In this document: one piece after another, positions 590 to 38,329 of the stretch
Layout: each line of letters begins with the position of its first letter
Position numbering within the stretch: the stretch's first letter is position 1
Virus genome (UHGV): UHGV-0145328
Strand: one strand, 5' to 3'
DNA from: a virus
Length of the DNA: 39,313 bases
Position numbers and translations under genes: made by a program
The notes under the pieces: model-generated
The model's input: the letters and a program-made list of their open reading frames with translations, nothing else
Told to the model about the DNA's origin: nothing
Databases searched by the model: none

Positions 590-616
590 ATAAATTTCAG
601 GCAACAAAAAACCCAT
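590..616. repeat. attL core (27-bp direct repeat ATAAATTTCAGGCAACAAAAAACCCAT)
   Basis: Identical 27-mer recurs at 36472..36498; it lies just after the rcdA stop and next to the integrase gene. Confidence 0.85.
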
Positions 617-690: not shown

Positions 691-1743
691 TTACGGGGTA
701 ATGCCAACCGCTGCCGCCACTTTGTCGCCACTTGGCAGCGTTGCCAGAGGATTGAAACGGAGCGCCGTTTCTAGATGATCCGGTGCCAGATGTGCGTAAC
801 GCATAGTCATTTTTATATCGTGGTGTCCGAGAATTTTTTGTAAGGCCAGAATGTTTCCACCCGACATCATGAAGTGCGCCGCAAACGTATGGCGCAGAAC
901 GTGTGTGAGTTGACCGCGAGGGAGCACGATAGACGTTTTTTCCATCACGGATAAAAATTGAAAATAGCAGTCTGTGAAGAAATTGAACCCATCAAGCGCC
1001 ATGATCTCTTCGTAAAGCTCTTTACTGATAGGGATGCTTCTGTTTTTCTTCCCCTTCGTTCTGACAAAGGTAATTCGGTATTTGGTCACCTGTGAGCGGG
1101 TAAGATTTACGGCTTCACGCCAGCGTGCGCCTGTGCTTAAGCATATCTTAACTACCAGTGCCAGAATTGGGTCCTGACGTTTGCAATCAGCCAGCAATTC
1201 AACAATCTGCTCATGGGTAAGCCATGCCATCTCTTTTTCTGCGATGGTGAATTTTCGCATGTTCTCCAGTGGGTTCGGATACGACCATTCGCCCAGACGG
1301 GATAGTTCGCTAAAAACACTACTTAGATAGCTTTGCTCCAGGTTAATGGTGACCGGGCTTGCTCCTTTCTTCCATTTCTCGCTGAAGTAGATCTCGCCTG
1401 TCAGGCGTTTATCTCGATAGTGGGCAAACATTTTAGAGGTGAGATCGGTTGCAAGAGGATTGCCCAGAGCGTCAACCATCAACAGCAATTTGTCATAGAC
1501 ATGCTGCCCAGCTGTCAGAGATTTACCATGTAGTTTGAACCATAGCTCAACCACGTCTTTCAGTGTTCGACGATCCACTGATTCACCCAGCCAGGGCTTT
1601 GCTTCGGTTTCTTCCATCGTGTGGCGCTCAAAAGCCAGTGCTTCGCCTTTGGTGGCGAATTGTTTACGCACACGACGCCCACTTCGTCCGGCGGGGTAAC
1701 ATTCGCAAAGCCATTTCCCTGTGGTTAGTTTTCGTACTGCCAT
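691..1743 (-). CDS. int: Tyrosine integrase (P2 Int family)
   Basis: 350 aa; C-terminal catalytic region with HxxR and a terminal Tyr (…LRHTFAAHFMMSGGNILALQKILGHHDIKMTMRYAHLAPDH…); adjacent to attL. Confidence 0.9.
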   Translation of the reverse strand: MAVRKLTTGKWLCECYPAGRSGRRVRKQFATKGEALAFERHTMEETEAKPWLGESVDRRTLKDVVELWFKLHGKSLTAGQHVYDKLLLMVDALGNPLATDLTSKMFAHYRDKRLTGEIYFSEKWKKGASPVTINLEQSYLSSVFSELSRLGEWSYPNPLENMRKFTIAEKEMAWLTHEQIVELLADCKRQDPILALVVKICLSTGARWREAVNLTRSQVTKYRITFVRTKGKKNRSIPISKELYEEIMALDGFNFFTDCYFQFLSVMEKTSIVLPRGQLTHVLRHTFAAHFMMSGGNILALQKILGHHDIKMTMRYAHLAPDHLETALRFNPLATLPSGDKVAAAVGITP

Positions 1744-1825
1744 AAAAAGCCCTCATATCAGAGGGCTAAATTTAACTGTATATGTAACCAGTAATCAATG
1801 TGTGATTACTATGAAACATACATTG

Positions 1826-3502
1826 CTAAGCAACATGTAGTTCATCGTTGGCGGAAGTGGCTGCTTTGCGCTCCTGCTCAATAGCTAGAGACTCTCTATA
1901 TTCTTTCGCCTCTGCAAACATTGTCCAGTGGGCGTTGATGTTCATGTCTTCAATAACTGATTTGATTTCTTTTAAATTTACGTTAAAAAACTCTTTTCGT
2001 GAGTTAATTTTATTGACCTGCTTTTCGTTGAAAACTTTATGCAGATGGTTTTCTAATGATGGTGCATCATCACTATAAATCATCGCATGAACATCGAACG
2101 AAAAAGGAACACTAGCATCTCCGAGTTCACGAACACGATCAAGTGGTTCAAGGCGGCGTGTCATTCCAATTTTATATACATCTTCGCCAAATGAACCAAT
2201 ATTACTAATGATATAGACGTGGCCTGATCTGGTTTGTTGAGCCATAGAAATAGCTCGTTGATTTTTAGCTTCAGCTTCTTCATATTTTAACTGTAGTTCA
2301 GCTATTTTTTGCTCTAAAGCTAAGCGTTGTTCTTCATTTGCAAGCATAAGTTCTTTCGTTGCTTTATTTATAGCTTGCTGAATAGCTTTTTCTTCTTTTT
2401 CAGCTTCTTTTATCGCTTTTTCATATTCTCTACGAGCTCTTTCCTCTTCACGAAGCTGTTCTTTAATCCTTCTTTGCTCTTCTTTTTCTTCGAGCATAAT
2501 TTCATTAACTGCTACACCCCATTTTAGCTCGTTGAGTCTTGCCTGAAGATAGATGTCACTTATTTTTGCGGACCTAAAGGCAGAGCCATTGTAATTTACT
2601 AGTTGAAATGCATCTTTTATTTCTTGGGAAAGTTTTCCAAAATTGTTGTGTTTGACTTTTGATAAAATACTGTCAACTCTTCCATTGAAGGCATCCAAAA
2701 CAAAGTTTATGGCAGTATTACGCCTGTTTTGCTCAACATAATCACACGAAGCAGCTTTATTAGTTTTTATTAATGATTTGGTTAACTCTCTGGCTTTTTG
2801 TAATTCCTTGCCTGCATCTGTAAATTCATAATTTTCTGCCAGCTCATCAAGTACACTACGGTTAGGGATGATCCATTCATCACCATAACCTTCAATTTTA
2901 TTTTTCATTGATTTTGCAACTGCTTCATATTTTTCTGCAAACTCTTTAGCTTCATATGCTGAACCAGCAATCTCCTTTGCTCTTTCTTCTGCATCAGAAA
3001 TAATTTTTACTGCATTGTCATTAGCATTTGAGATTAGCTCATTTGCTTTATTATTAGCATTATCAAGACGTTCTTTGGCTTTCAGGCGTGCATCGCGAGC
3101 GTCTTTGGTGATTGCTATAGCTTCGCTATTAGCGTTGCTTATTGTCATCTGAGCTTGATAATTTGCTTCGTTTACTGTTTTAGCCGCCTTAATTTGGGCT
3201 TCATCTATTTTTTGCTTGGCTATTGAGTCCGCATTTTTTATCTTATTCTCTGCATCCATTACTGCGCTGTGCAATTCTTCGTATTGCCACAATGGTGCTG
3301 CTCGCCCTTCAAGCTCTGATAATTCTCGTACGGTCTGTGCTAGTTTTTCTTGATTTTCAATCAGTTGGTTAGAAAGGGCTATGTTGTTAGCTGTCAGGTT
3401 ATCTATAGCCGCTTTGTGTTTTTTACTTTGTTTAAATAATATTACAGCTAGAACAGGGGCGAGAAATGCTAATAAGAGTATAACGATGGCAAATGAATTC
3501 AT
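1826..3502 (-). CDS. Membrane-anchored coiled-coil protein with DUF4041-like region and C-terminal T5orf172 (GIY-YIG-like) domain; cargo gene
   Basis: N-terminal hydrophobic helix (SFAIVILLLAFLAPVLAVILF); long K/E/A-rich heptad regions; C-terminal block GHVYIISNIGSFGEDVYKIGMTRRLEPLDRVRELG...VPFSFDVHAMIYSDD typical of T5orf172; visibly AT-rich; co-oriented with cI and int. Confidence 0.7.
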   Translation of the reverse strand: MNSFAIVILLLAFLAPVLAVILFKQSKKHKAAIDNLTANNIALSNQLIENQEKLAQTVRELSELEGRAAPLWQYEELHSAVMDAENKIKNADSIAKQKIDEAQIKAAKTVNEANYQAQMTISNANSEAIAITKDARDARLKAKERLDNANNKANELISNANDNAVKIISDAEERAKEIAGSAYEAKEFAEKYEAVAKSMKNKIEGYGDEWIIPNRSVLDELAENYEFTDAGKELQKARELTKSLIKTNKAASCDYVEQNRRNTAINFVLDAFNGRVDSILSKVKHNNFGKLSQEIKDAFQLVNYNGSAFRSAKISDIYLQARLNELKWGVAVNEIMLEEKEEQRRIKEQLREEERARREYEKAIKEAEKEEKAIQQAINKATKELMLANEEQRLALEQKIAELQLKYEEAEAKNQRAISMAQQTRSGHVYIISNIGSFGEDVYKIGMTRRLEPLDRVRELGDASVPFSFDVHAMIYSDDAPSLENHLHKVFNEKQVNKINSRKEFFNVNLKEIKSVIEDMNINAHWTMFAEAKEYRESLAIEQERKAATSANDELHVA

Positions 3503-3522: not shown

Positions 3523-4119
3523 TTAATTCGAGACTATTGTACTTCTTATACAAGCAACCACTTCAATATCAGAAAATGCACATTCAAAGCTATTCTCTGC
3601 TGTTGTAATTTTAATCATTCCTTTAGGAAGCCTTGTGATTTTTCGAATGGAATAGGTTCCGTCGATATTGATTAACCAGTTTCCATCAAGTACTTCAGAA
3701 AATTTTTGATCACAAATGTATGTGACGAGTCCATCCTGAACAACAATTGGTGATGAAAGGTTTGCAGGAAGAAATGATGAATCGAAGACATATGAACCGT
3801 CTTCAATCATTTTGCCTGCGGCAAGGCGAAACTTAACAAGCTCTTCTGTAGCTGCTGTCAGCGAGCTTTGCTTAAGGCCTTGTCCGGTAGTTAACCATTT
3901 GAGGGAGGTTCCTGTTTCAAGAGCACATTGGATTATCCAGTCAGCAGGAAATGTATCCCGCAAATACCTGTTCGCTAGTGTGCTTTTTGATACTTCCAAG
4001 TGATCAGCTAAAGCCTGTCGTGTCGTAAAGCCATAGGCTTCGACTAATCGCTCAATCGCAGCCTTACCACCTTTATTGGGATTTATTTTGATCTCACTTG
4101 GGTACTTTGATGTTGACAT
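3523..4119 (-). CDS. cI: Immunity repressor CI (186-type)
   Basis: 198 aa with N-terminal HTH-like region, divergent from apl/cII; position between int and apl matches the 186 lysogeny module. Confidence 0.75.
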   Translation of the reverse strand: MSTSKYPSEIKINPNKGGKAAIERLVEAYGFTTRQALADHLEVSKSTLANRYLRDTFPADWIIQCALETGTSLKWLTTGQGLKQSSLTAATEELVKFRLAAGKMIEDGSYVFDSSFLPANLSSPIVVQDGLVTYICDQKFSEVLDGNWLINIDGTYSIRKITRLPKGMIKITTAENSFECAFSDIEVVACIRSTIVSN

Positions 4120-6269: not shown

Positions 6270-7123
6270 GCACCATCCTGAAATGGGCGGGAAATAAAAC
6301 CGCCATTATGCCAGAACTGAAAAAATACCTTCCTGCTGGCCCGCGACTGGTTGAACCTTTCGCGGGTTCCTGTGCTGTGATGATGGAAACGGATTATCCC
6401 AGCTATCTGGTTGCGGATATTAATCCTGATTTAATCAACCTCTATAAAAAGGTTGCCGCTGATTGTGAATCGTTTATATCTCGCGCCAGAGTTTTATTTG
6501 AGATCGCAAACAGGGAGGTGGCTTATTACAACATAAGGCAGGAGTTTAACTGCTCAACTGAAATTACTGATTTCATGAAAGCGGTATATTTCCTGTATCT
6601 CAATCGTCACGGTTACCGTGGTTTATGTCGCTATAACAAGAGCGGGCATTTCAACATTCCCTACGGTAATTATAAAAATCCGTATTTCCCTGAAAAAGAA
6701 CTTCGCACATTTGCAGAAAAAGCCCAGCGAGCAACGTTTATCTGCGCCAGCTTTGATGAAACGCTGGCGATGTTGAAGGCGGGAGATGTGGTGTATTGCG
6801 ATCCGCCATATGACGGTACGTTTTCCGGCTATCACACTGATGGTTTCACTGAAGATGACCAGTATCACCTGGCATCCGTTCTTGAACATCGGTCATCAGA
6901 AGGACATCCGGTCATTGTTTCTAACAGTGACACATCCCTGATCCGTTCGCTGTATCGCAATTTTACTCACCACTATATCAAGGTAAAACGCAGCATCGGT
7001 GTGGCAGCTGGCGAGGGTAAATCAGCAACAGAAATCATTGCTGTTTCCGGGCCGCGCTGCTGGATGGGATTTGATTATTCGCGTGGCGTGGATAGTTCTG
7101 CCGTGTACGGAGTACGTGCATGA
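6266..7123 (+). CDS. dam: DNA adenine methyltransferase (Dam-like, GATC type)
   Basis: [11 protein letters not shown]… N-terminus, FAGSCAV AdoMet-binding motif and DPPY catalytic motif; start overlaps the stop of the preceding gene. Confidence 0.85.
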
Positions 7124-9534
7124 GTCATGCCGATATGAACAACTGCTGCGGCTTTAACGAGGCTGCCGCAGCATTCTCATGGAACAGCCCGAAAAAGGCC
7201 ATTAACCCTTATCTGGACCCGGCGGAAGTTGCGCCGGTTTCTACGCTTTCAAACCTGATCACTCTGTACGCTGCCGATAACGAGCAGGAACAACTGCGCC
7301 GCGAGGCACTGAGTGATCAGGTCTGGGAGCGTTATTTCTTTAATGAATCACGTGATCCTGTCCAGCGCGAAATGGAGCAGGATAAGCTCATTAGCCGGGC
7401 AAAGCTGGCGCATGAGCAGCAGCGTTTTAATTCAGACATGGTCATTCTGGCGGACGTCAACGCCCAGCCTTCCCATATCAGCAAGCCGCTGATGCAACGT
7501 ATTGAATACTTCAGCAGCCTGGGCAGGCCAAAGGCTTATTCCCGCTATTTACGTGAGACGATTAAGCCATGTCTGGAACGACTGGAGCATGTACGCGACA
7601 GTCAGCTATCTGCATCTTTTCGCTTTATGGCAAGCAATGAAGGGCTGGACGGCCTGCTGATCCTGCCTGAAATGAGTCAGGATCAGGTGAAACGCCTGTC
7701 CACCCTGGTAGCTGCGCATATGAGTATGTGCCTTGATGCAGCTTGTGGTGATTTGTATGCCACCGATGACGTTAAGCCAGAAGAAATCCGCAAGACATGG
7801 GAAAAGGTGGCAGCGGAAACCCTGCGTCTGGATGTCATCCCACCTGCGTTTGAGCAACTCCGTCGGAAAAGAAACCGCCGTAAACCCGTGCCCTATGAAC
7901 TCATTCCGGGTTCGCTGGCGCGTATGTTGTGCGCCGACTGGTGGTATCGGAAATTATGGAAGATGCGTTGCGAATGGCGGGAAGAGCAGTTGCGCGCTGT
8001 TTGCCTGGTCAGCAAAAAAGCATCTCCTTATGTCAGCTATGAAGCCGTGATGCATAAACGTGAGCAGCGCCGTAAGTCGCTGGAGTTTTTCCGTTCTCAT
8101 GAACTGGTGAACGAAGACGGCGACACGCTGGACATGGAGGATGTGGTAAACGCCAGCAGCAGCAACCCTGCGCATCGCCGCAATGAGATGATGGCCTGTG
8201 TTAAAGGTCTGGAGCTTATCGCGGAAATGCGCGGTGACTGCGCCGTTTTCTACACTATCACCTGTCCGTCGCGTTTCCATTCCACGCTAAATAACGGCAG
8301 ACCAAACCCGACCTGGACAAACGCGACGGTAAGACAAAGCAGCGATTATCTGGTCGGCATGTTTGCTGCATTTCGTAAGGCGATGCACAAAGCCGGGTTG
8401 CGCTGGTATGGCGTGCGGGTGGCTGAGCCGCATCATGATGGCACAGTTCACTGGCACCTGTTGTGTTTCATGCGCAAAAAAGACCGCCGTGCCATCACTG
8501 CATTACTGCGTAAGTTTGCCATCCGTGAAGACCGCGAGGAGCTGGGCAATAACACTGGGCCGCGCTTTAAGTCTGAGTTGATTAACCCGCGCAAAGGAAC
8601 GCCGACAAGCTACATCGCGAAATATATCAGTAAGAACATTGACGGTCGTGGTCTGGCTGGCGAGATCAGCAAGGAAACGGGTAAATCTCTGCGTGATAAC
8701 GCTGAATACGTGAATGCCTGGGCGTCTCTGCATCGTGTTCAGCAATTCCGCTTCTTTGGTATTCCGGGGCGTCAGGCTTACCGTGAACTTCGCTTGCTGG
8801 CTGGTCAGGCGGCAAGGCAACAGGGTGACAAAAAAGCAGGTGCGCCGGTACTGGATAACCCGCGTCTTGATGCCATTCTGGCTGCTGCTGATGCTGGTTG
8901 TTTTGCCACCTACATCATGAAGCAGGGCGGCGTACTGGTTCCCCGTAAATATCACCTCATCAGAACCGCTTATGAAATCAACGAAGAGCCGACCGCCTAT
9001 GGCGATCACGGCATTCGTATTTATGGCATCTGGTCACCCATTGCAGAGGGCAAGATCTGCACTCATGCAGTGAAGTGGAAAATGGTTCGTAAAGCCGTTG
9101 ACGTTCAGGAGGCGGCAGCCGACCAGGGCGCTTGCGCCCCTTGGACTCGTGGCAATAACTGTCCCCTTGCTGAAAATTTGAACCAACAAGGGAAAGACAA
9201 ATCAGCTGATGGAGATACCAGAACGGATATCACCCGCATGGATGACAAGGAGTTGCACGATTACCTGCACAGTATGAGCAAAAAAGAGCGCCGGGAACTG
9301 GCTGCAAGGTTACGCCTGGTGAAACCGAAACGGCGTAAAGACTACAAACAGCGAATTACAGACCATCAGCGACAGCAGCTCGTCTATGAACTGAAGTCCA
9401 GAGGATTTAATGGCAGCGAGAAAGAGGTCGATTTACTCCTTCGCGGCGGCAGTATTCCGTCAGGAGCAGGCCTGCGTATCTTCTATCGGAACCAGCGTTT
9501 GCAGGAAGATGATAAGTGGCGAAACCTGTATTAA
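7120..9534 (+). CDS. A: Replication initiation protein A (rolling-circle HUH endonuclease, P2 gpA-like)
   Basis: 804 aa containing [11 protein letters not shown] (HUH motif); position after the early genes. Confidence 0.85.
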
Positions 9535-9628
9535 TTACGCGGGTTAACAATTCGTGCTCTTAATAATACCAGGCATATCAGGCTGATGAACGTAAAAAAA
9601 CGTTTTACATCAGTAAGATTATTATATA

Positions 9629-9644
9629 CTGTAAATATAAACAG
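9629..9644. promoter_or_regulatory. LexA box (CTGT-N8-ACAG)
   Basis: CTGTAAATATAAACAG matches the SOS-box core exactly, about 45 bp upstream of the ATG at 9688. Confidence 0.7.
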
Positions 9645-9687
9645 TGGTTATGTATACAGTATTGCTTGTGGTGTCATAGGAGGAAAG

Positions 9688-9876
9688 ATGCAGGACTATT
9701 TTTTGGAGTCTTTGAAGCTCCAGCGCATTGATTTTTTTCTTAAGCTTGTAGCGGCTAGTGAGTGTAGTGATGAAGAGAAGGGGCTGGCTTTGCAGTGGGT
9801 TTCTGAACTGACAGATGAACTCATGGCAAAAATCAGAACCCACGAATACAACCGCTCAATGGATGTCATCAGCTGA
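9688..9876 (+). CDS. Small protein in LexA-controlled operon (possible Tum/antirepressor N-terminal part)
   Basis: 62 aa from the ATG at 9688 with strong AGGAGGAAAG RBS, downstream of the LexA box. Confidence 0.5.
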   Translation: MQDYFLESLKLQRIDFFLKLVAASECSDEEKGLALQWVSELTDELMAKIRTHEYNRSMDVIS

Positions 9877-9886
9877 GGTGACTTTT

Positions 9887-10120
9887 ATGCGCATTGAAAT
9901 AATGATCGATAAAGAGCAGAAGATTAGCCAGTCTACCCTGGACGCCCTTGAATCCGAGCTTTACCGCAATCTGCGCCCCCTATATCCAAAAACGGTAATT
10001 CGCATCCGCAAAGGTAGCTCTAACGGTGTGGAACTGACCGGACTGCAACTGGACGAAGAAAGAAAACAAGTGATGAAAATTATGCAGAAGGTGTGGGAAG
10101 ACGACAGCTGGCTGCATTGA
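9887..10120 (+). CDS. DinI-like protein
   Basis: 77 aa (MRIEIMIDKEQ…LDALESELYRNL…MQKVWEDDSWLH) with the size and pattern of DinI; RBS GAGGTG upstream. Confidence 0.7.
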   Translation: MRIEIMIDKEQKISQSTLDALESELYRNLRPLYPKTVIRIRKGSSNGVELTGLQLDEERKQVMKIMQKVWEDDSWLH

Positions 10121-10233
10121 TTTTGTCAATAGACGCTTGTTTTTACTAATCAAAAAGGGTTACATATGAGTGAGAGGCGATGTCAATCAGATATCGCCTT
10201 GTTTTTTGTCAAGAAAAGAATAATAGGCTAAAA

Positions 10234-10911
10234 ATGAAAATTAATAATGTAGCGTTACCAATATCTCTTGCTGTAATCCTAACTGGTTGCGTGCCACATG
10301 CTTCTAACCGAAATATCACTGCTATTGAAGTGGTGAAGCCTGCTATTGGGCAAAGTGCTACCGCCTACATGGGCGATCCCATTATCACATCTGCTACTGG
10401 ATTTAAAACGGACGTACTAGAACTTGGTGCGGCTAATGGTGCATTGTCTTCTATCGCTGCTGGTACATATTGCAGTGAGGGGAATGGAATTTACCGCAAT
10501 TATCATAACCCTCAAGCTGTTGCGTTAAAAAATCTCTATGGGCAAATCGGTAACTATGTTGATTATGTTAGTTACGATGCTGCAAAAAATGAGATATCAC
10601 CGCCAAATGGTACTTCTTATACTGCATCAGAAATTTCTATCAAACGTGTTCCTGATGGGCTGTGTCGAGTTAGTAACTCATTGGTTAAGACTATCGAATA
10701 CAATGGAAATGCAGGCGGTGTAATGAAGTTCACCTATCGTGAATTTGCAAACGATATGGCTCGTGCAGCATTTACAACAGATTTTTCTGTAGATTCTAAG
10801 GGAAGTGACGTTATCGCTTACAAAGGTGCCAAGTTCAAAGTGAACAAGGCTGATAACTCGTCTATTTCTTATACAATTATTTCTGGCTTTGACAAGGCTG
10901 TCACGTTCTAG
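10234..10911 (+). CDS. Lipoprotein of unknown function (moron)
   Basis: Signal peptide plus lipobox (MKINNVALPISLAVILTGC); AT-rich; followed by a hairpin terminator. Confidence 0.65.
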   Translation: MKINNVALPISLAVILTGCVPHASNRNITAIEVVKPAIGQSATAYMGDPIITSATGFKTDVLELGAANGALSSIAAGTYCSEGNGIYRNYHNPQAVALKNLYGQIGNYVDYVSYDAAKNEISPPNGTSYTASEISIKRVPDGLCRVSNSLVKTIEYNGNAGGVMKFTYREFANDMARAAFTTDFSVDSKGSDVIAYKGAKFKVNKADNSSISYTIISGFDKAVTF

Positions 10912-11103: not shown

Positions 11104-11255
11104 CGCGCGTTAAGCCATATAAGAGTTATATATTGATTTGATTGCTGGACATACATACAGTATCGCTCTATCATCTAATAAATCTTAGGGTATTTGACAA
11201 TGTTTGGATAAAATGGAACCTAACTTATTCATAATCCGCTAAACAGGGATGTCAG

Positions 11256-12170
11256 ATGCCATACCAATTGGTAGAGCTTAGCCCCGTAGCTAACGATCTT
11301 GAACAGTTAGGAACCAAAGAGAAGTTTTGGTTCTATTTCTCCGATGACACTGTAAATTTGCAGTTGTTTAAGTACTCTAGGCCAGGTACTGGCGAGCATT
11401 GGTCTGAAAAGTGTGCTGCTGAGTTATGTCATTTGCTTAACATTCCACATGCTAGCTATGATTTGGCGCGATACAATGGTCGATTCGGTGTGGTGACTCA
11501 GAATATCATTCCATCTGGTTTCCGGATGGTAATGGGAAATGAAGTGCTTCACAGTTCGACATTCGATTATCCTGGGCCTTTACAAGCCGGGGAAAAGCCG
11601 GTAAGGGTCAGAGAACACACTGTCACAAGGGTCTTGGGTTGTTTAGATAGGGAATCTATCAAGCCTCCTCCGAGTGTATATGATCTAACCGGGCTAAATG
11701 CAGCAGATGTATTTTGTGGATATTTGATGCTCGATGCACTTGTGAGTAATCAAGATCGCCACCATGAAAATTGGGCAATCATGCTTAACAATGAAACTGG
11801 TGAGCAGTTTTTGTGTCCAACATACGATCATGCCGCTAGTTTAGGAAGGGAGATGTTAGATGATGAGCGTAACGAACGGCTTAATACTAAAGATAAAAAT
11901 CGACAAATCCCATGTTTTGTAAGAAAAGCTCGCTCTGAGCTATTCAAAGCAAAAACTGATAAAAAGCCCTTGCTGACTGTTGAAGCATTTCAACATGCAG
12001 TTGAAGGGAGAGTTGCCGCTCGCGACCATTGGTTAGGTAAGTTGAGCGTTTTAACAGAAGATTCCATTACAGATGTGTTTAACCAAGTGCCTTCATCGTG
12101 TATATCCGACAGTGCACGTAGATTTGCAACGTTAATGGTAATGGAAAATCGCAGAAGGTTACTAGAATGA
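11256..12170 (+). CDS. HipA-like Ser/Thr kinase core-domain protein
   Basis: 304 aa with LGTKEKFWF (cf. HipA VAGAQEKT), VSNQDRHHENWAIM (cf. HipA catalytic GATDGHAKNFSV) and CPTYDHAASLG (cf. HipA TPFYDIIS); AT-rich cargo. Confidence 0.6.
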   Translation: MPYQLVELSPVANDLEQLGTKEKFWFYFSDDTVNLQLFKYSRPGTGEHWSEKCAAELCHLLNIPHASYDLARYNGRFGVVTQNIIPSGFRMVMGNEVLHSSTFDYPGPLQAGEKPVRVREHTVTRVLGCLDRESIKPPPSVYDLTGLNAADVFCGYLMLDALVSNQDRHHENWAIMLNNETGEQFLCPTYDHAASLGREMLDDERNERLNTKDKNRQIPCFVRKARSELFKAKTDKKPLLTVEAFQHAVEGRVAARDHWLGKLSVLTEDSITDVFNQVPSSCISDSARRFATLMVMENRRRLLE

Positions 12171-12907
12171 CTAATACAAACTCCGTTTACGTCGCATGGC
12201 AGGCACCAGATACCAGAGACTGGCATGTTGTTGGTAACTTGCAAGAGCGCAAATCGGGGTATGTTTTCAGGTATACCAAAGGTGCTCTTAAATCTTCTAA
12301 ATTTACAAAGTTTAGCGGCATGAGTGATGTTCGTGAAACTTATGTATCGGAAGAATTGTTTCCTCTTTTTAAAAATCGCCTTTTATCACCGAGACGTCCA
12401 GAGTATCCGAGTTTCATTAAATGGCTTGGATTTGAAGAAGATAAGGTAAATCCTATCGATATTCTTGCTCGCTCGGGAGGCTTACGAAGCACTGATCAGC
12501 TGCAGATTTTCAAAAAAATTGATTTTGATTCTGATGGTAACTTTGAGCATTTTTTCTTCTTACATGGACTTGGTTACTTGAATAGCTTAGCTAATGCTCG
12601 TGTATCTGAATTGAAACCGGGGCAAATTTTGCGTCTTTGCTTGGATCTTCAAAATGAATACGATGGGGATGCTGTTGTCGTTCGTGCAGATAAACCAGCT
12701 GAAATCGTTGGTTACTGCCCTAGGTATTTAAGTAATGACATCAAGAAGATGTTATTGGATGATCCAAAATCAATCACTTTAACGGTCGAAAAGATTAGCG
12801 ATGATGCTCCTCATAACTATCGGTTATTATGTAAATTATCAGGGGTACTAAGCCAAGCCTGTCAATCGACGCTGATTCCTCAAGATGAGTTTGAACCTAT
12901 TGAGTAA
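12167..12907 (+). CDS. Partner protein of the kinase; N-terminus possibly HipA N-subdomain-like (HipS-like), C-terminal domain unknown
   Basis: 246 aa; start overlaps the kinase stop (ATGA); N-terminal VYVAWQAPDTRDWHVVGNLQERKSGYVFRYTKGAL loosely resembles the HipA N-terminus. Confidence 0.5.
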   Translation: MTNTNSVYVAWQAPDTRDWHVVGNLQERKSGYVFRYTKGALKSSKFTKFSGMSDVRETYVSEELFPLFKNRLLSPRRPEYPSFIKWLGFEEDKVNPIDILARSGGLRSTDQLQIFKKIDFDSDGNFEHFFFLHGLGYLNSLANARVSELKPGQILRLCLDLQNEYDGDAVVVRADKPAEIVGYCPRYLSNDIKKMLLDDPKSITLTVEKISDDAPHNYRLLCKLSGVLSQACQSTLIPQDEFEPIE

Positions 12908-36471: not shown

Positions 36472-36498
36472 ATAAATTTCAGGCAACAAAAAACCCAT
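36472..36498. repeat. attR core (27-bp direct repeat)
   Basis: Identical to 590..616. Confidence 0.85.
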
Positions 36499-36643: not shown

Positions 36644-38329
36644 TTATCCTAATCCTGGCCATACCATGACGATGATTGTCCCTGCCAGCGTCAGCAGGAC
36701 GTTGGCGATTGCATAGGTGCCCGCATAGCCCAGCGCCGGGATGTTACTGCGAGCTGTATCACTGATGATCTCCATTGCCGGCGCGCAGGTGCGTGCGCCC
36801 ATCATTGCGCCGAATAACAGTGCGCGGTTCATTCGCAATACATAAGCACCGAACAAGAAACAGATAACCACTGGCACAAGACTGACAATCAATCCGGCAA
36901 TCAACATCTGACCGCCAATCGCGCCCAGGCCGTTATTAATACCGCTACCGGCGCTCAGACCAACGCCTGCCATAAACACCATTAAGCCGAACTCTTTCAC
37001 CATGCTTAATGCACCCTGCGGAATGTAACCGAAGGTCGGGTGGTTAGCGCGCATAAATCCCAGCATAATTCCGGCGAATAACAACCCGGCAGCGTTCCCC
37101 ATGCCGAAACTGAATGTGCTGAACTGGAAGGTGATCATCCCGATCATCAGCCCAATAACAAAGAAGGCGCAGAATGCCAGCAAGTCAGTGACCTGGCTGT
37201 GAATCGAGATAAAGCCGATGCGATCGGCGATGGTTTTTACGCGACGGGCATCGCCGCTGACTTGTAAAACGTCACCTTTGTTAAGCACGACGTTGTCATC
37301 TATCGGCATCTCAATCTGGCTACGAATGACGCGGTTAAGGAAGCAACCGTGATCGGTCAACTTCAGTTGTGCGAGACGTTTGCCCACGGCGTTATGGTTT
37401 TTAACGACCACTTCTTCAGTGACGATACGCATGTCGAGAAGGTCACGATCGAAAACTTCTTTGCCGTTACGGAAGCTGGGATCGAGTCGGGCGTGGGCGT
37501 CGGGATAGCCTACCAACGCTATTTCATCTCCCATTTGTAGCACAGCATCACCGTCTGGATTCGCCAGAATCCCGTTACGTCGAATACGTTCAATGTAGCA
37601 GCCGGTTTGTCGATAAATACCCAGTTCACGCAGATTTTTGCCGTCGGTCCAGGCCACCAGCTCCGGGCCGACGCGGTAGGCGCGGATCACCGGTAAATAA
37701 ACCTTACGGTTGGCATCAGTGTCCAGGCCACGTTCGCGGGCGATTTGCTGGGCGCTGGTCTGTAAGTCCTGATGCTGCAATTTCGGCAAGTAACGCGCAC
37801 CAACAATCAAACTCACCAGACCGATTAAATAGGTTAAGGCATACCCGAGGCTCAGATTATCCAGTGCCAGTGAGAGCTGCCTGCTTTCCATGCCGGAATG
37901 ACGCAGTGTATCGCCAGCACCGACCAGAACCGGTGTCGACGTCATAGAGCCAGCTAACATACCGGCCGTCAGGCCAATATCCCAGCCAAACAGCTTACCT
38001 AACCCTAAGGCGATCACCAGCGCACTGCCAACCATCACCAGTGCTAACATTAGGTAATTTTTCCCATCGCGAAAAAAAATGGAAAAAAAGTTCGGTCCGG
38101 CTTCGACCCCGACGCAGAAAATAAACAGCATAAAGCCAAGATTAAGCGCGTCGGTGTTAATGCTGAAATGTTGTTGGCCTAATAACAGCGATACGACTAA
38201 AACGCCAATGGAATTACCCAGTTGGATCGAACCAAGTCGTAATTTCCCGAGACATAGCCCAAGCGCGAGGACCACAAATAATAACAGAATGTAATTCCCA
38301 TTTAACAATTCGGCGACGTTTATATTCAC
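36644..38329 (-). CDS. ybjL: Putative transport protein YbjL (AAE-family transporter with TrkA-C domains)
   Basis: 561-aa polytopic membrane protein; sequence and the ybjL-ybjM-grxA neighbourhood match E. coli. Confidence 0.9.

What the first reader, a model, noticed from the sequence alone, without database searches (positions are those of the whole stretch)
9627..10120. LexA box upstream of a two-ORF operon ending in a DinI-like gene: likely SOS-inducible antirepressor, possibly a split Tum
A perfect CTGT-N8-ACAG LexA-box core precedes a 62-aa ORF with a strong RBS, followed 10 bp later in a different frame by a 77-aa DinI-like protein. In phage 186, SOS induction works through the LexA-repressed antirepressor Tum. 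The two ORFs together are close to Tum in length (139 versus about 146 aa, from memory). This may be a naturally bipartite module or a frameshifted tum.
Basis: partly seen in the sequence, partly recalled or inferred. Interest (0 to 1): 0.5.

Follow-up and report, generated by a model that had tools for sequence, protein, structure and literature searches.

The report
Split Tum SOS antirepressor operon (Fels-2 type)
This is the DNA-damage switch of a common Fels-2/186-like prophage: a LexA-repressed promoter drives a small antirepressor gene and a separate DinI-like gene. The arrangement is already described for phages Fels-2 and PSP3, so the finding is real but ordinary.

Summary
A 20-bp LexA box (9627-9646, 17/20 to consensus) overlaps the -10 of a promoter laid out like 186 p95. 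It precedes a 62-aa ORF (9688-9876). Ten bases later, in the +1 frame, comes a 77-aa DinI-family ORF (9887-10120), followed by a terminator hairpin.

The window holds an intact 35.9-kb P2/186-like prophage (att repeats 590-616 / 36472-36498). This region is 98% identical to Salmonella phage Fels-2 (STM2728 + STM2726.1) and occurs in 1125 of 5426 complete E. coli genomes.

ORF2 aligns to 186 Tum residues 71-145 (41% identity). ORF1 shows no BLAST similarity to Tum. Profile comparison does link it to the Tum N-terminal domain (hhalign 96.6%, residues 2-46 to 2-46), and reciprocal PHROG cross-hits agree.

The split is natural, not a frameshift. Three junction geometries exist in relatives, each with its own stop, Shine-Dalgarno sequence and ATG. 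Distant relatives keep the LexA box and the small ORF but lack any DinI gene.

PSP3 annotates these genes as tumA/tumB, and Lemire et al. 2011 state that Fels-2 and PSP3 have tum split in two.

Verdict: already known, under-annotated, low interest.

One modest new hint: the TumA type tracks the CI N-terminal DNA-binding domain, not the C-terminal domain.

The parts
9604..9609 (+). Putative -35 hexamer TTTACA of the SOS (p95-like) promoter
   Evidence: Read from the sequence. There is a 17-nt spacer to TACTGT. The layout matches the annotated 186 p95 promoter, TTCACA-18-TACTGT. Inferred by analogy; the consensus scanner did not report it because TACTGT matches only 3 of 6 positions of TATAAT.
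9627..9646 (.). LexA box TACTGTAAATATAAACAGTG. Its first 6 bases form the putative -10 (TACTGT).
   Evidence: 17/20 to consensus with both CTG/CAG cores. An equivalent box is present in all 12 related loci. The 186 record annotates the equivalent site as LexA binding, overlapping the -10.
9642..9661 (.). Doubtful second, degenerate LexA-like site (CAGTGGTTATGTATACAGTA). It looks like a duplicated right half-site.
   Evidence: 15/20, with only one core. It accounts for the longer distance from box to start (41 nt here and in Fels-2, against 15-29 nt elsewhere). Function not shown.
9678..9683 (+). Shine-Dalgarno AGGAGG for ORF1
   Evidence: Read from the sequence; 4 nt before ATG 9688.
9688..9876 (+). 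tumA-like gene: 62-aa predicted antirepressor, a remote homologue of the Tum N-terminal domain
   Evidence: phrog_698, full length, E 3.6e-38. hhalign to the Tum N-domain family 96.6%, E 6e-10. PHROG cross-hits. 61/62 identical to Fels-2 STM2728. The AF2 model is a two-helix hairpin, pLDDT 87.
9875..9880 (+). Shine-Dalgarno-like GAGGTG for ORF2, overlapping the ORF1 stop codon
   Evidence: Junction sequence.
9887..10120 (+). tumB-like gene: 77-aa DinI-family protein
   Evidence: Pfam PF06183 E 6.6e-23. 41% identity to 186 Tum 71-145. 100% identical to Fels-2 STM2726.1 and 78% to PSP3 TumB. Matches E. coli DinI 1ghh at E 2.7e-6.
10174..10207 (+). Intrinsic-terminator-like hairpin plus T-run after tumB, at the position of 186 t95a
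   Evidence: Scanner hit with an 11-pair stem. RNA fold z-score -3.1. 186 has the partial terminator t95a at the same position.
10234..10911 (+). 225-aa predicted lipoprotein (lipobox LTGC). It may be a read-through member of the operon. It occupies the slot of 186 orf97 but is unrelated to it.
   Evidence: phrog_1353 E 3e-105. No similarity to 186 Orf97. Equivalent to Fels-2 STM2726. Membership of the operon is not shown.
3523..4119 (-). 186-type CI repressor, the inferred target of TumA
   Evidence: Pfam PF07022 + PF16452 and no S24 peptidase domain. That it is the target is inferred from the 186 mechanism.

Best explanation
This is the SOS-induction operon of an intact Fels-2/186-like (P2-family) prophage. 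In undamaged cells, host LexA binds the box at 9627-9646, which overlaps the -10 of a p95-like promoter, and keeps the operon off. DNA damage activates RecA and LexA cleaves itself, so the promoter fires.

Two separately translated proteins are then made. TumA (62 aa, a two-helix hairpin) binds the prophage CI repressor (3523-4119), which cannot cleave itself. This stops CI from binding its operators, so the early lytic promoter is derepressed and the prophage is induced. TumB (77 aa, DinI-like) acts on RecA filaments and modulates the SOS signal rather than CI.

Transcription mostly stops at the hairpin at 10174-10207.

Shown here: the sequence features, their homologies, their conservation and their context.
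Inferred from 186 and PSP3: LexA binding, the TumA-CI interaction and the role of TumB.
For: Context
- The prophage is intact, with 27-bp att repeats.
- It carries the gpA replicase and a 186-type CI lacking a peptidase domain.

Identity to described phages
- The region is 98% identical to Fels-2.
- PSP3 annotates the equivalent pair as tumA ('similar to 5' end 186 tum; UV induction of prophage') and tumB.
- The 186 record annotates p95, the LexA site, tum ('inhibits CI DNA binding') and an internal start at residue 71.

Homology
- ORF2 matches Tum 71-145 and is DinI family.
- ORF1 matches the Tum N-domain by hhalign at 96.6% and by reciprocal PHROG cross-hits.

Comparative evidence
- Six distant ORF1 relatives (36-52% identity) all sit directly after gpA in P2-like prophages.
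- All have a 186-type CI where the flank reaches it.
- All carry a 16-19/20 LexA box 15-29 nt upstream of the start.
- A DinI gene follows in only one of these six lineages.

Literature
- PMC7708051 describes induction of 186 by Tum expressed from the LexA-regulated p95 promoter.
Against: - There is no experiment on this allele.
- ORF1 has no BLAST-level similarity to 186 Tum or PSP3 TumA. Against PSP3 TumA alone its profile match is weak (9.5%).
- The antirepressor activity of a split TumA rests on a personal communication cited second-hand. The primary paper (Bunny et al. 2002) could not be read.
- The putative -10 (TACTGT) is a poor consensus match and the promoter scanner did not call it.
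- The same TumA sequence occurs with CI proteins only 41-51% identical overall. A highly specific repressor-antirepressor pair would not obviously be expected to behave this way.
Confidence: 0.85

Rival explanations
1. ORF1 is an SOS-induced small protein with a role other than antirepression (for example a host-directed modulator, or the 'levan regulatory protein' named by some sources). Induction of this prophage would then depend on something else.
For: ORF1 has no hit in Pfam, NCBIfam or PADLOC, and PHROGs lists its family as 'unknown function'. Some sources name it 'levan regulatory (domain) protein'. One TumA sequence is paired with many divergent CI proteins.
Against: ORF1 has co-linear profile homology to the Tum N-terminal domain. 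The position after gpA, the LexA box and the co-occurrence with 186-type CI are invariant across distant relatives. TumA identity correlates with CI N-domain identity. No other LexA-controlled candidate antirepressor is evident in the early region.
Confidence: 0.1
2. The two ORFs are a recently frameshifted or mis-sequenced tum gene, i.e. a pseudogene or an indel artefact at 9860-9890.
For: 62 + 77 = 139 aa, close to Tum at 146 aa. The ORF2 frame is open for 24 codons upstream of its ATG (ORF 9815..10120).
Against: The same junction is present in Fels-2, in many isolated phages and in 1056 or more complete E. coli genomes. Relatives use three different junction geometries (+1, 0 and +2 frame offsets), each with a stop, a Shine-Dalgarno sequence and an ATG. 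The ORF1 family consists almost entirely of stand-alone 55-75-aa proteins, none fused to DinI. Several lineages have no DinI gene at all. An open run of 24 codons is expected by chance about one time in three.
Confidence: 0.02
3. A fused 139-aa Tum-like protein is also made, by programmed +1 frameshifting or by readthrough, alongside the two separate products.
For: The ORF2 frame overlaps the 3' end of ORF1 without a stop. In PSP3 the two genes are in the same frame, separated by one stop codon plus one sense codon. 186 makes both long and short products from one gene.
Against: A +1 shift is needed, not the common -1 shift. No slippery heptamer was seen on reading 9815-9876. The frame relation is not conserved among relatives. 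ORF2 has its own Shine-Dalgarno sequence and ATG.
Confidence: 0.03

Closest known systems
Salmonella phage Fels-2 STM2728 + STM2726.1 (NC_010463)
   Same: 98% nucleotide identity over 9540-10180. TumA is 61/62 identical and TumB 77/77. The LexA box, the 10-nt junction, the downstream lipoprotein gene and the position after gpA are all the same.
   Different: CI is only 41.5% identical overall (N-domain 71%, C-domain 30%). The cargo genes on both sides of the module differ.
Phage PSP3 tumA/tumB (NC_005340)
   Same: A LexA box (19/20), then a small ORF annotated as the antirepressor half of Tum, then a separate DinI-like ORF, all directly after the replicase gene. TumB is 78% identical.
   Different: TumA belongs to a different PHROG family (phrog_1993) and shows no BLAST similarity to ORF1. 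The genes are in the same frame with a 3-nt gap.
Coliphage 186 Tum and the p95 SOS operon (NC_001317)
   Same: A LexA site overlapping a TACTGT -10. An N-terminal domain homologous to ORF1 and a C-terminal DinI-like domain 41% identical to ORF2. A partial terminator after the gene. A CI repressor that does not cleave itself.
   Different: In 186 the two halves are fused in one 146-aa protein, with the DinI half also made from an internal GTG. The downstream gene orf97 is unrelated to the ORF at that position here.
Gifsy-1/2/3 dinI-antirepressor(gfoA/gftA)-irsA operons (Lemire et al. 2011, PMC3121763)
   Same: A LexA-controlled operon combining a DinI homologue with a small antirepressor that inactivates a repressor which does not cleave itself.
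   Different: The gene order is reversed (dinI first). They are lambdoid phages with a different repressor family. No sequence comparison with GfoA/GftA was made here.
E. coli DinI (PDB 1ghh)
   Same: ORF2 aligns over its full length (residues 1-75 to 1-77), including the MRIE start and the acidic C-terminal W-E-x-D-W motif.
   Different: The match is below the NCBIfam equivalog cut-off (42.7 against 111 bits). ORF2 is a phage paralogue, not the host gene.

Membership tests
Tum-type LexA-controlled antirepressor (186 Tum N-terminal domain / PSP3 TumA) | Sequence homology to the Tum N-terminal (non-DinI) region | tested here: met
   BLASTP finds nothing. hhalign of the two family alignments gives 96.6%, E 6e-10, co-linear over residues 2-46. 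Reciprocal PHROG cross-hits give E 5.9e-6 and 5.8e-5.
Tum-type LexA-controlled antirepressor (186 Tum N-terminal domain / PSP3 TumA) | LexA operator overlapping the promoter directly upstream | tested here: met
   At sequence level only: a 17/20 box overlapping the putative -10, conserved in 12 of 12 related loci. Same layout as annotated 186 p95.
Tum-type LexA-controlled antirepressor (186 Tum N-terminal domain / PSP3 TumA) | Resides in a P2/186-like prophage, after replicase gene A, together with a 186-type CI that lacks an autocleavage domain | tested here: met
   gpA is at 7120-9534. CI has PF07022 + PF16452 and no S24 peptidase domain. The same context holds in distant relatives.
Tum-type LexA-controlled antirepressor (186 Tum N-terminal domain / PSP3 TumA) | The protein binds CI and blocks operator binding; LexA binds the box in vitro and in vivo | not testable with these tools
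   Needs EMSA, two-hybrid and induction assays. Only a monomer structure could be predicted here.
DinI family (Pfam PF06183) | Matches the family model above the curated threshold over the full domain | tested here: met
   81.3 bits against a cut-off of 24.2, profile positions 1-63 of 63. Aligns to E. coli DinI 1ghh.
DinI family (Pfam PF06183) | Binds RecA filaments and modulates the SOS response | not testable with these tools
   Inferred from family membership and from the 186 annotation 'modulates SOS induction'.
Split tumA-tumB arrangement (Fels-2 / PSP3 type) | Two adjacent ORFs, each with its own stop, Shine-Dalgarno sequence and ATG, in place of a fused tum | tested here: met
   Junction TGA-ggtgactttt-ATG, identical to Fels-2. 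PSP3 and the L016 lineage have analogous junctions with different geometry.
Frameshifted tum pseudogene | Frame disruption relative to close intact relatives, with no conservation of the disrupted state | tested here: not met
   No fused close relative was found among 484 clusters or 66 representatives. The split state is conserved in over 1000 E. coli genomes.
186 SOS operon including orf97 | An Orf97 homologue downstream of tum | tested here: not met
   The 243/225-aa ORF at 10180/10234-10911 shows no similarity to 186 Orf97 (E 4.5). It is a predicted lipoprotein in phrog_1353.

The most novel reading that the evidence does not exclude
One nearly invariant TumA sequence may serve as a shared 'master key' antirepressor for many P2-like prophages. 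Their CI repressors have unrelated-looking C-terminal domains but a conserved N-terminal DNA-binding domain. This would imply two things. First, TumA targets the CI N-terminal domain directly. Second, co-resident or related prophages with different CI alleles can be cross-induced. On this reading the DinI half is an optional accessory that has been gained, lost or fused repeatedly.

Support:
- An identical TumA is paired with CI proteins 41-51% identical overall.
- Within the TumA-sharing group the CI N-domain is 59-83% identical, against 38-48% to 186 and PSP3. The C-domain is 25-57% identical within the group, against 23-34%.
- Across 13 prophages, TumA identity correlates with CI N-domain identity (Spearman 0.70, Mantel p 4e-4) but not with C-domain identity (0.10, p 0.26).

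Caveats: six of the 13 prophages share one TumA, relatedness is not controlled for, and one locus (L023) has a similar CI N-domain (77%) but a TumA only 40% identical.
Probability: 0.25. Interest if true: 0.4.

Novelty: already known. Interest (0 to 1): 0.15.

Why it matters
There is little new biology here. LexA-controlled Tum antirepression is the textbook induction route of phage 186. The split tumA/tumB form is annotated in PSP3 and noted in print for Fels-2.

The practical value is in annotation. This exact module sits in about one fifth of complete E. coli genomes and in many Klebsiella and Salmonella prophages. There the antirepressor gene is labelled 'hypothetical protein' (RefSeq), 'unknown function' (PHROGs) or 'levan regulatory protein'. 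Recognising it marks these P2-like prophages as SOS-inducible rather than P2-type non-inducible.

The hint that TumA tracks the CI N-terminal domain is cheap to test. If it holds, it would bear on cross-induction between prophages.

Tried and rejected
- BLASTP of ORF1 against 186 Tum and PSP3 TumA gave no alignment. Profile methods were needed.
- Pfam, NCBIfam, PADLOC and PDB-sequence searches gave nothing for ORF1.
- The AF2 model of ORF1 is a confident two-helix hairpin. Foldseek against PDB and BFVD returned only generic helical hairpins, with no match at E <= 0.001 in either library (best E 1.3 and 0.28), so nothing can be inferred from fold.
Context was obtained through the look-up of encoding contigs instead.
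- The downstream ORF was compared with 186 Orf97 and no similarity was found.
- The primary papers (Bunny et al. 2002; Lamont et al. 1989) are not held. What is known about Fels-2 and PSP3 is therefore cited through Lemire et al. 2011.
- A literature search for which CI domain Tum binds found nothing relevant. A 'TumA/TumB' word search returned only unrelated papers.
- The 96-aa upstream-extended form of ORF1 (ATG 9586) was rejected. That start lies upstream of the promoter and the LexA box, and the family's conserved N-terminus begins at 9688.
- The frameshift-artefact and programmed-frameshift readings were rejected (see rival explanations).

Full report
**1. What is in the sequence**

- The motif CTGTAAATATAAACAG is at 9629-9644.
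- ORF1 runs from ATG 9688 to TGA 9876 (62 aa), preceded by AGGAGG at 9678-9683.
- ORF2 runs from ATG 9887 to TGA 10120 (77 aa).
- The gap between them is 10 nt, and ORF2 is in the +1 frame relative to ORF1.

The 16-mer core of the box is the only perfect copy in the window, but on its own it is not beyond chance: 0.54 copies are expected, and 38 of 100 shuffles have at least one. The full 20-mer, TACTGTAAATATAAACAGTG (9627-9646), matches the LexA consensus at 17/20. Sites with at least 15/20 and both CTG/CAG cores are expected only 0.015 times per shuffled window.

**2. Context**

The window holds a complete P2/186-like prophage.

- It is bounded by 27-bp direct repeats at 590-616 and 36472-36498.
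- It encodes an integrase and a 186-type CI repressor at 3523-4119. CI has Pfam PF07022 + PF16452 and no S24 autocleavage domain.
- It has the 804-aa gpA replicase at 7120-9534, ending just upstream of the finding, followed by portal, terminase and tail genes.

The stretch 9540-10180 is 98% identical to Salmonella phage Fels-2, where the two ORFs are STM2728 ('hypothetical protein') and STM2726.1 ('DinI family protein; similar to TumB of PsP3'). It is equally close to many Klebsiella and E. coli P2-like phages. The module occurs in 1125 of 5426 complete E. coli genomes, mostly at 95-99% identity. RefSeq annotates it there as 'hypothetical protein' plus 'DinI family protein'.

**3. The two proteins**

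ORF2:
- It is a DinI-family protein: PF06183, 81 bits against a cut-off of 24.
- It aligns with E. coli DinI (1ghh) over its full length.
- It is 41% identical to residues 71-145 of 186 Tum, E 3e-24.
- Its first residue aligns with Tum residue 71. That is exactly the internal GTG start which the 186 record annotates for a 'truncated Tum - modulates SOS induction'. So 186 itself also makes the DinI-like half as a separate product.

ORF1:
- It has no Pfam, NCBIfam or PADLOC match.
- It shows no BLASTP similarity to 186 Tum or to PSP3 TumA.
- It is a full-length member of phrog_698, 'unknown function', E 3.6e-38.
- A search of 5.8 billion proteins found 484 clusters. A search of 1.84 billion cluster representatives found 66. 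Nearly all are stand-alone proteins of 55-75 aa, and none is fused to a DinI domain.

An alignment of 29 diverse ORF1 relatives (A1) was compared with an alignment of the 186 Tum N-terminal domain family (A2). The result was hhalign probability 96.6%, E 6e-10, with ORF1 residues 2-46 aligned co-linearly with Tum residues 2-46.

Independent support comes from PHROG cross-hits:
- 186 Tum(1-70) hits phrog_698 at E 5.9e-6.
- An ORF1 relative (P0172) hits the N-terminal part of the Tum PHROG (phrog_189, positions 7-43) at E 5.8e-5.
- ORF1 and 186 Tum(1-70) both hit phrog_8554 and PSP3 TumA's family phrog_1993; PSP3 TumA itself hits phrog_1993 strongly (E 2.7e-32) but phrog_8554 only at E 0.15.

The shared motif is Q/E-R-I/V-E/D-hydrophobic(3)-R/K-L ... 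C-x(3)-D/E-K/R-x-L/I-A-L-x-W/L-I/V-A/S-E-L/I. An AlphaFold2 model (pLDDT 87) is a two-helix hairpin with the conserved Cys in the turn. Fold searches returned only generic hairpins.

**4. The split is natural**

- Members of the 186-type Tum N-domain family are also mostly stand-alone proteins of 63-78 aa, some named 'Tum protein'.
- PSP3 annotates tumA ('similar to 5' end 186 tum; UV induction of prophage') and tumB ('similar to dinI and 3' end of 186 tum').
- Junctions differ between lineages: 10 nt and +1 frame here and in Fels-2; 3 nt and the same frame in PSP3; 11 nt and +2 frame in the P0141 lineage. Each has its own stop, Shine-Dalgarno sequence and ATG.
- A sequencing indel or recent pseudogenisation is therefore excluded.
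- Programmed frameshifting to a fused product is unlikely. It would need a +1 shift, no slippery site was seen on reading 9815-9876, and the frame relation is not conserved.

**5. The invariant unit is LexA box plus small ORF**

Six distant ORF1 relatives (36-52% identical) were located on contigs.

- All lie directly downstream of gpA in P2-like prophages. A 186-type CI is present wherever the flank reaches it.
- All have a 16-19/20 LexA box with both cores, 15-29 nt upstream of the start codon.
- Only one lineage has a DinI gene downstream. In four lineages the next gene is a convergent ogr/delta gene followed by portal; in one it is a GmrSD/HEPN pair (the gene downstream of the sixth relative, P0175, was not identified).
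- In the window and in Fels-2 the box-to-start distance is longer (41 nt). The extra sequence contains a degenerate second site (9642-9661, 15/20, one core) that looks like a duplicated half-site.

**6. Promoter and terminator**

TTTACA (9604-9609), 17 nt, then TACTGT (9627-9632) reproduces the annotated 186 p95 layout, TTCACA-18-TACTGT, with the -10 inside the LexA site. The generic scanner does not call it because TACTGT is a weak -10.

After ORF2 there is an 11-pair hairpin with a T-run at 10174-10207 (RNA fold z -3.1). It sits where 186 has the partial terminator t95a.

The next ORF is best started at ATG 10234, giving MKINNVALPISLAVILTGC, a lipoprotein signal. It is in phrog_1353 and is unrelated to 186 Orf97.

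**7. Mechanism**

- Shown: the sequence features, homologies, conservation and context above.
- Established for 186: LexA represses p95, and SOS-induced Tum reversibly inhibits CI and derepresses pR (PMC7708051; the 186 record; Shearwin et al. 1998 as cited there).
[quoted passage not shown] 2002 and a personal communication).
- Inferred for this locus: LexA occupies 9627-9646; DNA damage relieves repression; TumA sequesters CI; TumB modulates RecA and the SOS signal.

**8. A modest extra observation**

The identical TumA sequence is paired with CI proteins that are only 41-51% identical overall. Broken down by domain:

| CI domain | Identity within the TumA-sharing group | Identity to 186 / PSP3 |
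|---|---|---|
| N-terminal HTH domain | 59-83% | 38-48% |
| C-terminal domain | 25-57% | 23-34% |

Over 13 prophages, TumA-core identity correlates with CI N-domain identity (Spearman 0.70, Mantel p 4e-4) and not with C-domain identity (0.10, p 0.26). This suggests that TumA recognises the DNA-binding domain.

The sample is small and six of the 13 share one TumA. Relatedness is uncontrolled, and L023 is a partial counter-example (CI N-domain 77% identical, TumA 40%).

**9. Verdict**

The arrangement is already known (Fels-2, PSP3), extremely common and simply under-annotated. Interest is low.

Noticed in passing
window 11143-11162 (with 11146-11174, 11256-12170 and 12167-12907): A second good LexA-like box, TGCTGGACATACATACAGTA (16/20, both cores), overlaps the -35 of a promoter-like site, TGGACA-17-TATCAT. 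It lies upstream of a two-gene candidate defence system: PDC-M03A (HipA_C-like kinase, E 2e-122) and PDC-M03B (HIRAN domain, E 7e-93). This may be SOS-regulated defence cargo in the slot between gene A and gene Q of the P2-like prophage.
   Followed up: partly
window 1774-1793: A LexA-like box, AACTGTATATGTAACCAGTA (16/20, both cores), sits in the 82-bp gap between the end of the 558-aa cargo gene and the start of int (691-1743, minus strand), i.e. just upstream of int. In Fels-2, int follows cI directly with no such gap.
   Followed up: no
window 1826-3502 (-): A 558-aa protein with DUF4041 and T5orf172/MUG113 domains is inserted between cI and int. It matches the PD-Lambda-1 anti-phage defence family at E 7e-120.
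   Followed up: partly
window 10234-10911 (+): A predicted lipoprotein (signal and lipobox ...AVILTGC), in phrog_1353 'unknown function' and equivalent to Fels-2 STM2726, occupies the position and almost the length of 186 orf97. It is unrelated to orf97 in sequence. Whether it is read through from the SOS promoter is unknown.
   Followed up: partly
proteins P0147, P0149, P0152, P0155, P0164, P0169, P0172, P0177, P0180, P0181 (loci L011, L018, L021, L023): Many distant TumA-family members carry a conserved Gly-rich C-terminal tail, roughly K-N/S-P-Q-x-G-G-x(3)-G-G-x(1-2)-L/F-Q. The window's protein lacks it. It was seen mainly in lineages without a downstream DinI gene. Its function is unknown.
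   Followed up: no
window 9642-9661: A degenerate second LexA-like site abuts the main box and looks like a duplicated right half-site (ATATAAACAGTG / ATGTATACAGTA, 15 bp apart). It explains the 41-nt box-to-start distance unique to the Fels-2 type.
   Followed up: partly
window 590-616 and 36472-36498: Perfect 27-bp direct repeats (ATAAATTTCAGGCAACAAAAAACCCAT) bound a 35.9-kb prophage. It lies between a TetR-family gene (20-586) and an Asp-Al_Ex/TrkA_C transporter gene (36644-38329). No tRNA gene is present at the site.
   Followed up: partly
locus L003 1501-1731 (phage 186): The internal GTG start annotated in 186 tum for the truncated 'SOS-modulating' product is at residue 71. That is exactly the residue aligning with Met1 of the window's DinI-like ORF. 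Fused and split phages therefore both deliver a free DinI-like polypeptide.
   Followed up: yes
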